Shown: positions 12,264-14,840 of the stretch, piece after piece
Position numbering within the stretch: position 1 is the first letter of the stretch
Layout of the letters: each line of letters opens with the position of its first letter
Assembly: GCA_965204745.1 (NCBI GenBank)
Contig: OZ242010.1
Span: 3,328,001-3,392,000 of the forward strand
Direction of reading: 5' to 3'
Source of the DNA: Candidatus Latescibacterota bacterium
GTDB taxonomy: Bacteria > Latescibacterota > UBA2968
Length of the DNA: 64,000 nucleotides
Made by a program: the position numbers and the translations under genes
The notes under the pieces: model-generated
Database searches by the model: none
What the model saw: only the letters and a program-made list of their open reading frames with translations
What the model was told of the DNA's origin: nothing

Positions 12264-13109
12264 ATGTCACAAAAGAAGATCGTCGTCATCGGTGCAGCGG
12301 GCTATGTGGCGGGGTTGATGCTACCCGCATTGCGCGCACAATACGACCTGACCTTGCTGGACGTCAAAACCACCACCCGCGATGGTGACGCAGTCGAAGG
12401 CGTGCAAATCGCGGACTTGGAAAATCCGGATCGGGATGCGTACCGCGCCCATTTTCAAGGGGCAGACGCCGTCGTCCACTGCGGGTTCAAGGGCACGGTG
12501 GCCTGGCAACACACGGACTACTGGAAAGAATCCGACAATATTCGGATGTGCTACAACGTGTACCAAACCTGCATTGAAGAAGGCGTCAACCGCATCGTGG
12601 TGATGAGTTCCAACCACGCCTGCGACTTTTACGAGCGGCTGATCTGGTCCGACCAATTGGACTTTGCCACCACCGACATGCTACCCCTGTCCGACAATTT
12701 TTACGGCTGGGCCAAATCCTCCTACGAACACCTCGCCTTCGTGTTTGCAACCGGCAACGCCACCGATGGCAAGCGGCTGGAAAGCGTCCACATCCGCATC
12801 GGCGCGCCCCGCGACACCGTCATGGAAGGGCAATCCGCAGACGACCTGAAACGCATGCACCGCGAACTCGGCGCGTACTTGAGCGCGCGCGACCTCTCGC
12901 AACTCGTCATCAAAAGCCTCGAAACCGAGAACATCGAAGACGAAAACGGCATCCCATTTCAAATTTTTTTCGGCATCAGCGGAAACACACACCGATTCTG
13001 GAACATCGCCAACGCAAGACGCATCGTGGGCTACGCACCCGAAGACGACAGCCAACTCCGCTTTGCGAATGAGATTGCAAAAGTGATACAAAAGAGAGGG
13101 GAGAGGTAA
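12264..13109 (+). CDS. NAD-dependent epimerase/dehydrogenase (uronate dehydrogenase-like SDR)
   Basis: GAAGYVA, MSSNHA, YGWAK (YxxxK), IRIG, YLSARDL, GYAPEDDS. Confidence 0.85.
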   Translation: MSQKKIVVIGAAGYVAGLMLPALRAQYDLTLLDVKTTTRDGDAVEGVQIADLENPDRDAYRAHFQGADAVVHCGFKGTVAWQHTDYWKESDNIRMCYNVYQTCIEEGVNRIVVMSSNHACDFYERLIWSDQLDFATTDMLPLSDNFYGWAKSSYEHLAFVFATGNATDGKRLESVHIRIGAPRDTVMEGQSADDLKRMHRELGAYLSARDLSQLVIKSLETENIEDENGIPFQIFFGISGNTHRFWNIANARRIVGYAPEDDSQLRFANEIAKVIQKRGER

Positions 13110-13126
13110 GATACTCTCTTAAAAGG

Positions 13127-14134
13127 TCAAGGGGTTTTCGGGGTGATTCGATAGAATTTTTCGCCCTCAAAATCTTGGTCATGGCGCAACATGCCCCAGA
13201 TCGAATGGAGCAACTTTCGCATCACCGCAACGATAGCCTGCAAAGGTTTCTTGCCGCGGGCGATGAGTTGGTCATAGAAGGCTTTGACATGGCCTTCGTG
13301 TCTGATGGCCACCCAGGCAGGCATATAGAGGGCATGGCGGAGGTACTTATTCCCGGTTTTCGAGATGCGTCTTTGTGGATTGGCGGTTCCGGATTGTTTG
13401 GGTTTGGGATCCAGGCCTGCATGTGCGACCCACTGGGGCGGTTGCATCTCCTCTGGCAAAAGGGTCAACTCGGCCAAGAGCCGCAAGGCACTCGTTTGCG
13501 CGATGCCAGGCGTCGAGCAGAGGCGTTGGTAGGCACGCTTGAGGGGCTCATCGTGCAAAACGAGATCGAGGGCTTGGCTTTCCAAGTATGCAATCCGGCG
13601 TTTGAAGTGTCGAATATTCACCTGAATATCGCGTGCGATGAGACGTGTGCTGCGGATGTGGTAGCTCTGCGCGTGGTTGCGGCTCTGTTCGCGGATGATC
13701 TCCTGCTTGAGTTGGTCAATGCGTCTGGTGAGGGCTTGCAGTTGAAGCCGTTGCTCGCTCGGCGCTTGCCAAGGCACAAAAGGCATGCGCTCGGCATAGT
13801 CGAGGATCAACAACGCATCCTTCGCATCCGTCTTCGCCCGTTGCATGCAGGCTTGGGCGTACTTGCTCATCGCTTTGGGATTGACGACCATGACCTTTGT
13901 GTGGCGATGCCGATGCAAGGCCAAGGCCACCCCCAAACTGTAAAGCCCGGTCGCTTCGAGGCACACAGAGACCATGTGCCCGCCCTTCGTGAGCCACTTC
14001 AGCAACCGCTTATGCGCTTGGGGATCATTGGCAAAGGTCGCTTGCATGACAGCTTGTCCGGGTCTGGACAGGGCAACGGACAACGTGCGGGCACTGACAT
14101 CAATGCCGGCAAAAGCGGGGTGAGATTTCGACAT
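13127..14134 (-). CDS. IS110 recombinase/transposase
   Basis: GIDVS, LEATG, KTDAKDA (DEDD RuvC); AGLDPKPKQSG (catalytic Ser), ISKTGNKYLRHALYMPA, VAVMRKLL; RBS AGGAGG before ATG 14134. Confidence 0.96.
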   Translation of the reverse strand: MSKSHPAFAGIDVSARTLSVALSRPGQAVMQATFANDPQAHKRLLKWLTKGGHMVSVCLEATGLYSLGVALALHRHRHTKVMVVNPKAMSKYAQACMQRAKTDAKDALLILDYAERMPFVPWQAPSEQRLQLQALTRRIDQLKQEIIREQSRNHAQSYHIRSTRLIARDIQVNIRHFKRRIAYLESQALDLVLHDEPLKRAYQRLCSTPGIAQTSALRLLAELTLLPEEMQPPQWVAHAGLDPKPKQSGTANPQRRISKTGNKYLRHALYMPAWVAIRHEGHVKAFYDQLIARGKKPLQAIVAVMRKLLHSIWGMLRHDQDFEGEKFYRITPKTP

Positions 14135-14149
14135 GGGGGCCTCCTGTGA

Positions 14150-14350
14150 TGAGGGGGTTGTAAGGGATCTGGTGCGCGCTCGGGGTCGCGTCCCGACCAT
14201 TGACGCCAAGTCTACCGGTCTTGTATATGCAGCCTCAAGGGGCTTAGATACTCTTCGGCATAGACCCGGCGGTCGGGGGGCCTATCTTACCTACAAGGTC
14301 ATCGCCTTCAAGAGGGGCCGGCCTTCCCCGAGCCGGGCATCAAGATGGCT
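14150..14350 (-). ncRNA. Putative bridge RNA of the IS110 (ends approximate)
   Basis: Target loop: CCCCTCTT (14310-14317) and AGGTAAGA (14285-14292) flank a hairpin. Donor loop: AGAGTATCT (14246-14254) and ATACAAGA (14219-14226) flank a hairpin. Confidence 0.85.
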
Positions 14351-14401
14351 TATCTCGATACGAGGGCGCAACTCCTAATTAACCCTTACTTCCAAGATAC
14401 A

Positions 14402-14840
14402 AGAGGGGAGAGGGGAGAGGGGAGAGGCAAGAGGGGAGAGGGGAGAGGGGAGAGGCAAGAGGGGAGAGGTAAGAGGTAAGACGGGAGAGGTGAAAGGTGA
14501 GAGGCCGGGGAATATAGGCTGGGATAACGCACAGGACGGTGTGGAGGTGGAGAGGAAGGGCACGCACACGGCGGGGCAGGGTAGCGGAGGGGATCGCACT
14601 TGGGCGGATGGGCGGGCCAGGGATGGGCACGCACGGGCGGATGGGTGGATGAGCGGGACACGCACTTGGGCGGCGGCGCAGAAGCGAGGATGGGCACGCA
14701 CTTGGGCGGTGGCGCGGAAGCGGGCACAGAGGCATTCGCCCCTACAAACACCGCTCACCTCTTGCCTCTTGCCTCTTGCCTCTTGCCTTTTGCCTTTTGC
14801 CTTTTGCCTTTTGCCTCTTACGTCTTACGTCTTACGTCTC
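14402..14840. repeat. Inverted pair of heptamer tracts (GAGAGGG/AAGAGGT ... CTTGCCT/CTTACGT) around a GC-rich spacer with REP-like motifs
   Basis: Purine tract 14402-14503; pyrimidine tract 14757-14840; GCACGCACTTGGGCGG repeats between them. Confidence 0.85.

What the first reader, a model, noticed from the sequence alone, without database searches (positions are those of the whole stretch)
13109..14403. IS110 with a fully readable bridge RNA programmed against host heptamer repeats
Seen (minus strand): the reconstructed target is CTCCCCT-CT-TACCT and the circle donor is AGAGTAT-CT-TGTAT. The non-coding left end contains CCCCTCTT and AGGTAAGA around an AAGG/CCTT hairpin (target loop), then AGAGTATCT and ATACAAGA around an AGCC/GGCT hairpin (donor loop). 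Known: this is the IS621 bridge-RNA layout, and as I recall the IS621 donor is ACAGTAT-CT-TGTAT. Inference: the donor is conserved while the target is re-programmed to an abundant simple-repeat safe harbour, making this a ready natural bridge recombinase ortholog.
Basis: partly seen in the sequence, partly recalled or inferred. Interest (0 to 1): 0.85.

Follow-up and report, generated by a model that had tools for sequence, protein, structure and literature searches.

The report
Bridge-RNA IS110 targeting heptamer repeats
This is an intact, multi-copy IS110-type jumping gene whose own small guide RNA is written to match a seven-base repeat of its host genome; it is a clear new example of a mechanism already described for IS621, not a new kind of system.

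Summary
Window 13109-14403 (minus strand) is a 1,293-bp IS110-group element bounded by a CT core at each junction. It encodes a 335-aa DEDD+Ser recombinase. That protein matches the ISCro4 and IS621 structures over its full length (E 7.6e-40 and 5.8e-36). Its 267-nt left end holds a two-loop bridge RNA. The loops read CCCCT-CT-T and rc(CT-TACCT) for the target, and AGAGTAT-CT and rc(CT-TGTAT) for the donor.

The genome holds 52 full-length copies: 30 are identical and 51 have intact ORFs. All share the same ends and all sit in heptamer arrays. Of the 52, 23 match their own guides at 12 of 12 positions and 20 more differ by one wobble. Four guide variants among full copies sit in correspondingly different flanks. 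Relatives in nine other genomes show the same pattern (9.0 of 10 matches to own flanks, 4.35 of 10 to others'). Structure covariation, handshake positions and a split junction promoter all fit IS621.

The donor differs from the published IS621 donor at 1 of 14 positions. Expression and activity are untested. Verdict: a real, probably recently active, new member of a known kind. Interest is moderate.

The parts
13109..14403 (-). Whole IS110-group element, including the CT core at both junctions (element proper 1,293 bp)
   Evidence: 52 full-length copies in the genome with these same ends; 30 are 100% identical over 1,295 nt.
14404..14410 (-). Left target half (LT) CTCCCCT, the last unit of the host heptamer array
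14402..14403 (-). CT core at the left junction
14397..14401 (-). Right donor half (RD) TGTAT, the first bases of the left end
   Evidence: complementary to the RDG ATACAAG.
14394..14399 (-). -10-like hexamer TATCTT of the split junction promoter
   Evidence: TTGACC-18-TATCTT scores 9 of 12 on the RE-LE junction built in a script; no sigma-70-like site in the integrated left end.
14339..14359 (-). 5' hairpin ATCGAGAT/ATCTTGAT ahead of the target loop (predicted only)
   Evidence: MFE and centroid; not conserved in distant relatives.
14273..14331 (-). Target-binding loop module: base stem, two guide strands and top hairpin
14310..14319 (-). LTG strand GGCCCCTCTT. It reads CCCCT-CT-T, the same sense as the target top strand, so it pairs with the bottom strand
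14295..14308 (-). TBL top hairpin AAGG/CCTT
   Evidence: helix 2: 100% of cells paired; AAGG/CCTT becomes GAGG/CCTC in G097.
14283..14294 (-). RTG strand GTAGGTAAGATA. AGGTAAG is the reverse complement of CT-TACCT. The following AU is the handshake guide, complementary to donor positions 6-7 (AT)
   Evidence: HSG definition from PMC11208158.
14206..14269 (-). Donor-binding loop module
   Evidence: helix 3 has 6 of 12 pairs with changes on both sides.
14245..14255 (-). LDG strand AAGAGTATCTA (reads AGAGTAT-CT)
14231..14244 (-). DBL top hairpin AGCC/GGCT
   Evidence: helix 4: 100% paired; the third pair is U-G, A-U or C-G in different sequences.
14219..14230 (-). RDG strand GCATATACAAGA. ATACAAG is the reverse complement of CT-TGTAT. 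The next base, A, is the handshake position facing target position 7 (T)
13127..14134 (-). Recombinase gene, 335 aa, ATG preceded by AGGAGG. Catalytic residues D12, E60, D103, D106, S248-G249
13125..13130 (-). -35 hexamer TTGACC in the right end, overlapping the TGA stop codon
   Evidence: TTGA-type hexamer at the same distance from the right end in all relatives.
13111..13117 (-). Left donor half (LD) AGAGTAT
13109..13110 (-). CT core at the right junction
13104..13108 (-). Right target half (RT) TACCT
14402..14504 (-). Host heptamer array (CTCCCCT/CTTGCCT/CTTACCT units, 14.7 copies) into which the element is inserted
   Evidence: TRF.

Best explanation
This is an intact, recently proliferating IS110-group insertion sequence that works like IS621.

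- Its left end encodes a bridge RNA with two internal loops.
- The donor loop (AGAGUAUCU / AUACAAG) pairs with the RE-LE junction AGAGTAT-CT-TGTAT of the excised circle.
- The target loop (CCCCUCUU / AGGUAAG) pairs with CCCCT-CT-TACCT inside host heptamer arrays.
- A tetramer of the DEDD+Ser recombinase exchanges strands at the CT core and inserts the element without a target duplication.
- Joining the ends should assemble a promoter (-35 TTGACC in the right end, -10 TATCTT in the left end) that drives the bridge RNA.

Shown here: anatomy, protein family and catalytic residues, copy number, guide-flank matching with natural covariation, RNA structure covariation, and promoter-like hexamers.

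Inferred by homology: transcription of the RNA, circle formation, and the chemistry.
For: Protein:
- Pfam DEDD_Tnp_IS110 and Transposase_20.
- NCBIfam NF033542, 'IS110 family RNA-guided transposase', 213.8 bits against a cutoff of 140.
- PDB ISCro4 9t56 E 7.6e-40 and IS621 8wt6 E 5.8e-36 over residues 7-326.
- D12/E60/D103/D106/S248-G249 align to IS621 D11/E60/D102/D105/S241-G242.

Copies:
- 52 full-length copies; 30 are 100% identical.
- 51 of 52 have an intact 335-aa ORF with the catalytic residues.
- An Infernal model of the RNA finds 60 loci in the genome.

Guides against flanks:
- 23 of 52 exact over 12 positions; 20 of 52 with one wobble.
- Class B (CGCCT..TACTT), class C (TGCCT..TACTT) and class D (TCCCT..CACCT) guides sit in correspondingly changed flanks.
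- Occupancy falls with mismatch: 20 of 25 exact sites, 17 of 82 one-wobble sites, 4 of 87 sites with two LT mismatches.
- Across 11 guide classes or lineages, guide against own flank averages 9.0 of 10, and against others' flanks 4.35 of 10.

Structure:
- 91.3% of cells are paired, against 30-52% when the partners are slid.
- 9 pairs change on both sides; 0 of 500 shuffles reach the observed value.

Handshake position: it is A, G, C or U where target position 7 is T, C, G or A. That is Watson-Crick in 6 of 10 lineages, wobble or mixed in 3, and mismatched in 1.

Promoter: the junction scores 9 of 12, and the -35 hexamer is conserved in all relatives. No promoter-like site was found in the integrated left end.

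Donor: it differs from the IS621 donor at 1 of 14 positions.
Against: - No direct evidence of transcription, circles or transposition.
- Rfam has no matching family, so the RNA was not tested against a curated bridge-RNA model.
- 9 of 52 copies do not fit their own guides within one wobble.
- The single-sequence MFE fold is not better than shuffles (z -0.89) and mispairs the target loop.
- Two alternative pairings for the run of six C's, T1 and P0, score alike.
- The junction spacer is 18 nt here, against 17 in the relatives.
Confidence: 0.9

Rival explanations
1. The nine copies whose flanks do not fit their own guides were placed by a different bridge RNA of the same genome acting in trans. 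One candidate source is a 192-bp mini element that keeps only the target loop.
For: - Copies at C1:1927368 and C1:5150716 sit in CCCCT-CT-CCCGT. That is 3 mismatches to their own RTG and 0 to the target loop of the mini element at C1:2972659.
- The copy at C1:602780 sits in TCCCT-CT-CACCT. That is 3 mismatches to its own guides and 0 to the guides of the copy at C1:1297034.
- All classes share the same donor ends.
- Bridge RNA supplied in trans works for IS621 (PMC11208160, passage).
- A truncated target-loop RNA cooperating with the bridge RNA is reported for another IS110 (10.1101/2025.10.25.684509, abstract only).
Against: - There are only three such cases.
- The same pattern would arise from recombination or gene conversion between copies after insertion.
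- It would also arise from half-match off-target insertion (10.64898/2026.08.31.748434, abstract only).
- The mini element lacks the 3' closing strand of the donor loop, and nothing shows it is transcribed.
- The four copies in TACCT-CT-TACCT match no known guide class better than their own.
Confidence: 0.2
2. The family is a fossil: the copies are recent duplicates, but the element no longer moves.
For: - No circle junction 14-mer is present in the assembly (0 hits).
- No expression data exist.
Against: - 30 copies are identical over 1,295 nt at dispersed sites.
- 51 of 52 ORFs are intact with catalytic residues.
- 80% of exact sites are filled, which points to recent activity.
- An assembly is not expected to contain a circle junction.
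Confidence: 0.07
3. The CTYNCCT heptamer arrays are not a pre-existing harbour. They are produced or expanded by the element's own recombinase, for example by target-target recombination between misaligned units that each carry a CT core.
For: - Three-unit CTYNCCT matches number 767 in this genome and 312 in G091.
- These are the two genomes whose copies are programmed to such heptamers.
- The other 19 genomes of the genus have 0-4 matches. That includes G082, whose copies target a non-heptamer site.
Against: - Only two related genomes carry the arrays, so this is not an independent association.
- Another heptamer class, CTGACNA, which the element does not target, is present in 14 of 21 genomes of the genus and numbers 1,175 here. 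Heptamer arrays therefore arise without this element.
- Relatives in other genera target what look by eye like REP-like palindromic repeats. That fits elements adapting to whatever repeat is abundant.
- Insertion makes no duplication.
Confidence: 0.07
4. Site choice is set by the protein or by DNA structure of the repeats, and the guide-like strings are coincidental.
For: The target is low-complexity and CT-rich, so short matches are easier to get by chance.
Against: - Guide changes track flank changes within one genome and across ten lineages with unrelated targets.
- The donor strings are not low-complexity.
- The recombinase is a full-length homologue of RNA-guided enzymes.
Confidence: 0.02

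Closest known systems
IS621 of Escherichia coli (bridge RNA and recombinase; Durrant et al. 2024, PMC11208160; Hiraizumi et al. 2024, PMC11208158)
   Same: - Domain order and catalytic residues.
- Long left end encoding a two-loop RNA.
- LTG in the sense of the target top strand and RTG as its complement.
- CT core read by all four guides.
- Handshake AU next to the RTG.
- -35 box in the right end.
- Targeting of an abundant intergenic repeat.
- Donor 13 of 14 identical.
   Different: - The protein is only distantly similar (E 5.8e-36; identity not computed).
- The target is a heptamer microsatellite rather than REP.
- The RTG pairs with 5 bases beyond the core here, against 2 in wild-type IS621.
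- The LTG pairs with 5 rather than 7 bases left of the core, plus one base to its right.
- The two handshake guides are 66 nt apart here, against 85 in IS621.
- There are 52 full-length copies in one genome.
ISCro4 recombinase (PDB 9t56). That this is the enzyme called IS622 in 10.1101/2025.05.14.653916 is recalled, not checked.
   Same: It is the best solved-structure match, full length, E 7.6e-40.
   Different: Its RNA and target were not compared here.
ISPpu9 / ISPpu10 of Pseudomonas putida (PMC12288879; 10.64898/2026.03.19.712850; search-listing abstracts only)
   Same: IS110 elements with all copies inserted in one repeated intergenic sequence.
   Different: Their targets are REP or a conserved intergenic sequence, not tandem heptamers. 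No sequence comparison was made.
IS1111-group elements with seekRNA (recalled; described as a group in PMC11208160, Extended Data Fig. 10 legend)
   Same: Same recombinase superfamily and RNA-guided logic.
   Different: The IS1111 group has a short left end and a long right end. This element has a 267-nt left end and about 16 nt of right end after the stop codon.

Membership tests
IS110 family, IS110 group (bridge-RNA-guided insertion sequences, IS621 type) | Recombinase with an N-terminal DEDD RuvC-like domain and a C-terminal Tnp domain | tested here: met
   PF01548 E 1.2e-24 and PF02371 E 4.8e-20. NF033542 scores 213.8 bits against a cutoff of 140.
IS110 family, IS110 group (bridge-RNA-guided insertion sequences, IS621 type) | Catalytic D-E-D-D plus Ser-Gly (IS621 D11, E60, D102, D105, S241, G242) | tested here: met
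   D12, E60, D103, D106 and S248-G249 align to them. They are present in 51 of 52 copies.
IS110 family, IS110 group (bridge-RNA-guided insertion sequences, IS621 type) | Long non-coding left end and short right end | tested here: met
   267 nt lie between the core and the ATG. The right end is 16 nt plus the core after the stop codon.
IS110 family, IS110 group (bridge-RNA-guided insertion sequences, IS621 type) | Left-end RNA with two stem-loops, each carrying an internal loop (TBL, DBL) | tested here: met
   RNAalifold consensus. 91.3% of cells are paired, against 30-52% when slid. 9 pairs have double changes.
IS110 family, IS110 group (bridge-RNA-guided insertion sequences, IS621 type) | LTG/RTG complementary to the two strands of the target, including the core | tested here: met
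   23 of 52 exact and 20 of 52 with one wobble. Covariation within the genome and across lineages.
IS110 family, IS110 group (bridge-RNA-guided insertion sequences, IS621 type) | LDG/RDG complementary to the RE-LE donor junction | tested here: met
   AGAGTATCT and rc(CTTGTAT) lie in the second loop of every sequence with the donor AGAGTAT-CT-TGTAT.
IS110 family, IS110 group (bridge-RNA-guided insertion sequences, IS621 type) | CT core at both junctions and no target-site duplication | tested here: met
   All 52 copies read ...CT|TGTAT...GTAT|CT... with different flanks on each side.
IS110 family, IS110 group (bridge-RNA-guided insertion sequences, IS621 type) | Sigma-70 promoter reconstituted across the RE-LE junction | tested here: inconclusive
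   The hexamers TTGACC-18-TATCTT score 9 of 12 and are conserved in relatives at 17-nt spacing. Function was not tested.
IS110 family, IS110 group (bridge-RNA-guided insertion sequences, IS621 type) | Handshake guides next to the RTG and RDG | tested here: met
   AU after the RTG faces donor AT. The base after the RDG tracks target position 7 in 6 of 10 lineages by Watson-Crick pairing, in 3 by wobble or mixed, and is mismatched in 1.
IS110 family, IS110 group (bridge-RNA-guided insertion sequences, IS621 type) | The RNA is expressed and recombination is RNA-dependent | not testable with these tools
IS110 family, IS110 group (bridge-RNA-guided insertion sequences, IS621 type) | Match to a curated bridge-RNA covariance model | tested here: inconclusive
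   There was no Rfam 15 match at E<=1 over 12500-15000. Whether Rfam holds such a family was not established.
IS1111 group (seekRNA type) | Short left end and long right end carrying the guide RNA | tested here: not met
   The right end is about 16 nt. The guides lie in the left end.

The most novel reading that the evidence does not exclude
The element and the CTYNCCT heptamer arrays form a genome-specific feedback system. Bridge-RNA variants, including a target-loop-only mini element acting in trans, diversify to follow unit variants of the arrays. The recombinase itself may remodel or expand the arrays by recombination between heptamer units that each carry a CT core.
Probability: 0.1. Interest if true: 0.65.

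Novelty: new member of a known kind. Interest (0 to 1): 0.35.

Why it matters
This adds no new mechanism. Its value is as an unusually clean natural data set for bridge recombinases.
- One genome holds 52 copies.
- There are at least four working guide classes, plus three more on fragments.
- Site occupancy falls stepwise with guide mismatch: 80%, 21%, 5%.

The data give natural estimates of mismatch and wobble tolerance. They also give candidate cases of in-trans or half-match targeting, and an ortholog from an uncultured phylum whose RTG pairs over 5 bases beyond the core. The element also explains part of the repeat landscape of this genome.

Tried and rejected
- Rfam scan of 12500-15000 at E<=1: no match.
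- Single-sequence MFE fold of the left end: not better than shuffles (z -0.89), and it mispairs the target loop. The alignment-based structure was used instead.
- Sequencing runs: no RNA holder was listed.
- Complete literature check: four paper searches gave no report of an IS110 in heptamer arrays or of this element. Supplementary ortholog lists of PMC11208160 and 10.1101/2025.05.14.653916 are closed, so the element may already be listed there.
- 'Safe harbour' by open frames spanning reconstructed empty sites: the length measure was uninformative (45 of 52 sites lie under a stop-free frame of at least 100 aa), because CT-rich repeats lack stop codons. The distance measure gave weak support: 36 of 52 sites lie within 40 codons of a frame end, against 479 of 2,000 random positions.
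- T1 (UCGGGG/CCCCGA) against P0 (CCCGAC/GUCGGG) pairing: both score alike, so this is unresolved.
- Direct comparison with the IS621 RNA or DNA was not possible.
- The recombinase was not folded, because sequence similarity to solved structures was already decisive.
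Full report
WHAT IS THERE

Read on the minus strand, window 13109-14403 starts with CT-TGTATCTTGG and ends with AAGAGAGTAT-CT. To its left is a heptamer array of 14.7 units of CTCCCCT/CTTGCCT/CTTACCT (TRF, 14402-14504). To its right are the remaining units TACCTCTCCCCTCTC.

The only long ORF on this strand is best read from the ATG at 14134, preceded by AGGAGG, to the TGA at 13127, giving 335 aa.
- It carries Pfam DEDD_Tnp_IS110 and Transposase_20.
- It matches NCBIfam NF033542, 'IS110 family RNA-guided transposase' (213.8 bits, cutoff 140).
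- It aligns over residues 7-326 to the solved ISCro4 (E 7.6e-40) and IS621 (E 5.8e-36) recombinases.
- D12, E60, D103, D106 and S248-G249 align with IS621 D11, E60, D102, D105 and S241-G242. The structure paper names these as the composite active site (PMC11208158, passages).

THE BRIDGE RNA

- GGCCCCTCTT
- the hairpin AAGG/CCTT
- GTAGGTAAGATA
- AAGAGTATCTA
- the hairpin AGCC/GGCT
- GCATATACAAGA

[quoted passage not shown] Under that rule the first loop codes CCCCT-CT-T and CT-TACCT. The second loop codes AGAGTAT-CT and CT-TGTAT. These are exactly the flanks and the ends of this copy.

The donor here differs from it at 1 of 14 positions.

COPIES IN THE GENOME

BLAST of the element against the whole 5.48-Mb genome gave 68 segments, 52 of them full length.

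| Identity to this copy | Copies |
|---|---|
| 100% over 1,295 nt | 30 |
| 99.1-99.9% | 7 |
| 96.1% | 8 |
| 95.8% | 1 |
| 94.8% | 1 |
| 88.5-89.1% | 5 |

- Fifty-one of the 52 have an intact 335-aa ORF with the catalytic residues; one is frameshifted.
- Every copy has the same ends and lies in a heptamer array.
- A covariance model built from 18 left ends finds 60 loci in this genome. These are the 52 full copies, six truncated copies, one 192-bp mini element and one weak hit.

GUIDE-FLANK COVARIATION INSIDE ONE GENOME

The left ends fall into four guide classes among the full copies.

| Class | Coded target | Copies | Flanks found |
|---|---|---|---|
| A | CCCCT-CT-TACCT | 45 | see next paragraph |
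| B | CGCCT-CT-TACTT | 4 | CGCCT-CT-TACTT in 2, and one change in each of the other 2 |
| C | TGCCT-CT-TACTT | 2 | TACCT-CT-TACTT in one (an rG-dT wobble); the other is discussed below |
| D | TCCCT-CT-CACCT | 1 | TCCCT-CT-CACCT; even the extra base after the core in the LTG changes from T to C |

Over all 52 copies, 23 match their own guides at 12 of 12 positions. Twenty more differ at one position that would be a G-U-type wobble, mostly TGCCT for TACCT.

Occupancy follows the match:

| Site | Occupied | Empty |
|---|---|---|
| Exact class A 12-mer | 20 | 5 |
| TGCCT variant (one wobble) | 17 | 65 |
| TACCT-CT-TACCT (two LT mismatches) | 4 | 83 |

Nine copies fit less well.
- Three of them fit another RNA of the same genome exactly. 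Two class A copies lie in CCCCT-CT-CCCGT, which is the specificity of the mini element. One class C copy lies in the class D target.
- This may reflect in-trans use, recombination between copies, or half-match insertion. The two preprints that bear on this were seen as abstracts only.

RELATIVES

Proteins 76-84% identical occur in many copies in two complete Latescibacterota MAG chromosomes. Proteins 52-64% identical occur in seven more genomes of the phylum (12 of 168 genomes at E<=1e-30).

In each lineage the same two-loop layout is present and the first loop matches that lineage's own flanks.
- G091: CTCGCCT-CT-CCC, again heptamers.
- G082: TCCTC-CT-TTTCT, not heptamers.
- G128: AGCAT-CT-CA.
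- G120: AAATAGT-CT-CA.
- G041: TGCGC-AT / CT-AACGT.
- G152: AAATA-CT-CACTT.
- G151: CGC-CT-CACGC.

In a matrix of 11 guide classes against 11 flank sets, own pairs agree at 8-10 of 10 positions (mean 9.0). Foreign pairs average 4.35. The one high off-diagonal value (9) joins two lineages with nearly the same target.

The donor AGAGTAT-CT-TGTAT is unchanged in 8 of the 10 lineages tabulated (TGTAC in two). G097 could not be parsed by the script and by eye has a different left donor.

The model also found loci outside its training set, in G008, G040 and G098. In G008 the hit lies directly before an ATG followed by a GIDVS-type start.

STRUCTURE

RNAalifold on the 18 left ends returns two stem-loops, each with an internal loop holding the guides. 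Pair counting on the structure I wrote from the sequence gives:
- 91.3% of 539 cells paired, against 30-52% when the 3' partners are slid by 1-3 columns.
- 9 pairs with changes on both sides, against 4.9 in shuffles; 0 of 500 shuffles reach this.
- 6 of 12 pairs in the base helix of the donor loop with changes on both sides.

The sequences are related and the structure was derived from one of them, so these controls overstate somewhat. Both top hairpins are 100% paired, with one compensated pair each. Whether the run of six C's closes the target loop (T1) or pairs with GUCGGG beyond the donor loop (P0) cannot be decided.

HANDSHAKE AND PROMOTER

The two bases after the core-binding AG of the RTG are AU. 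They are complementary to donor positions 6-7 (AT), as in wild-type IS621 (A81/U82).

The base after the core-binding AG of the RDG follows target position 7:
- A with T (this genome, G120).
- G with C (G082, G101).
- C with G (G097, by eye).
- U with A (G152).
- G with T as a wobble (G091, G128).
- Mixed in G041.
- C with C as a mismatch in G151.

The right end carries TTGACC overlapping the stop codon. On the joined ends it lies 18 nt before TATCTT, scoring 9 of 12. In all relatives a TTGA-type hexamer sits at the same place with a 17-nt spacer. The integrated left end has no promoter-like site. [quoted passage not shown]

THE TARGET REPEATS

- The genome has 606 period-7 arrays totalling 30.4 kb.
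- Three-unit CTYNCCT matches number 767 here, 312 in G091 and 0-4 in the other 19 genomes of the genus. That includes G082, whose copies are aimed at a non-heptamer site.
- A second heptamer class, CTGACNA, is in 14 of 21 genomes (1,175 here, 2 in G091).
- Heptamer arrays therefore arise without this element. The class it targets is abundant only where the guides point to it.
- I read this as the element tracking an abundant repeat, as IS621 does with REP. The reverse direction of cause is kept as the novel case at low odds.

In this window the site lies between the 3' ends of two convergent genes: an epimerase-family ORF (12264-13109, + strand) and a 1,003-aa ORF (14842-17853, - strand). The epimerase stop codon is formed by the right target plus the core and is unchanged by the insertion. 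Genome-wide support for 'non-coding' is only indirect.

VERDICT

It is a new member of the IS621-type bridge-RNA insertion sequences, well documented by natural covariation. Transcription and activity remain inferred.

TOOLS THAT WERE CLOSED OR FAILED

- Supplementary files of papers could not be seen.

Noticed in passing
G000:C1:2972659-2972850 (locus L092): A 192-bp mini element made of left end 1-185 joined to the last 6 nt of the right end. The target loop is intact but has a different RTG (ACGGGAGA, coding CT-CCCGT). The 3' closing strand of the donor loop is deleted. Two full copies elsewhere sit in exactly the site that this loop codes.
   Followed up: partly
G000:C1:1121591-1124182: Two copies (one 100%, one 96% subfamily) lie in tandem, separated by a single TACCT. 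One inserted at the heptamer next to the other.
   Followed up: no
G000:C1:921770, 1263485, 1433016, 2089406, 4373185: Truncated copies of an older subfamily lie next to a different repeat (ending ...ctcgccattcccc). Their LTG reads GTTCCCCCTT, which matches that flank, and their RTG codes CT-TCCTG. This is a further, now degraded, target specificity.
   Followed up: partly
G000:C1:949242-949351 (L105), with syntenic places in G083, G089, G084 and G078 (L106-L109): A single-copy stretch of about 110 nt resembles the 3' half of the bridge RNA (donor-loop-like ACCGAAGAGTATC..AGCC..GGCT..ACAAGA). It lies next to tRNA-Arg(CCG), on the opposite strand, in five species of the genus (28-35 bits with model R1). 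It is probably an old left-end relic. Whether it is conserved for a reason was not examined.
   Followed up: partly
window 14402-14492 and 14749-14839: The two heptamer arrays of this intergenic region are inverted relative to each other (91-nt arms, 71% complementary, 256 nt apart). They enclose 33-36-nt tandem repeats (14595-14727). Many other insertion sites lie at the first heptamer after a GGTGGCC/GGCCACC-type linker, so the arrays seem to be parts of a larger composite repeat.
   Followed up: no
whole genome G000 and genus: CTGACNA heptamer arrays are very abundant here (1,175 three-unit matches) and present at low numbers in 13 other genomes of the genus. Their origin and function are unknown.
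   Followed up: partly
L063, L073, L078 (G041): In this relative the LTG ends in AT while the RTG reads CT. Two of three copies have AT rather than CT at the left junction. The two guides may read different cores.
   Followed up: no
listing: The runs that hold half or more of the element's sampled words include several labelled sponge metagenome. None was laid, so this is only a hint about habitat.
   Followed up: no
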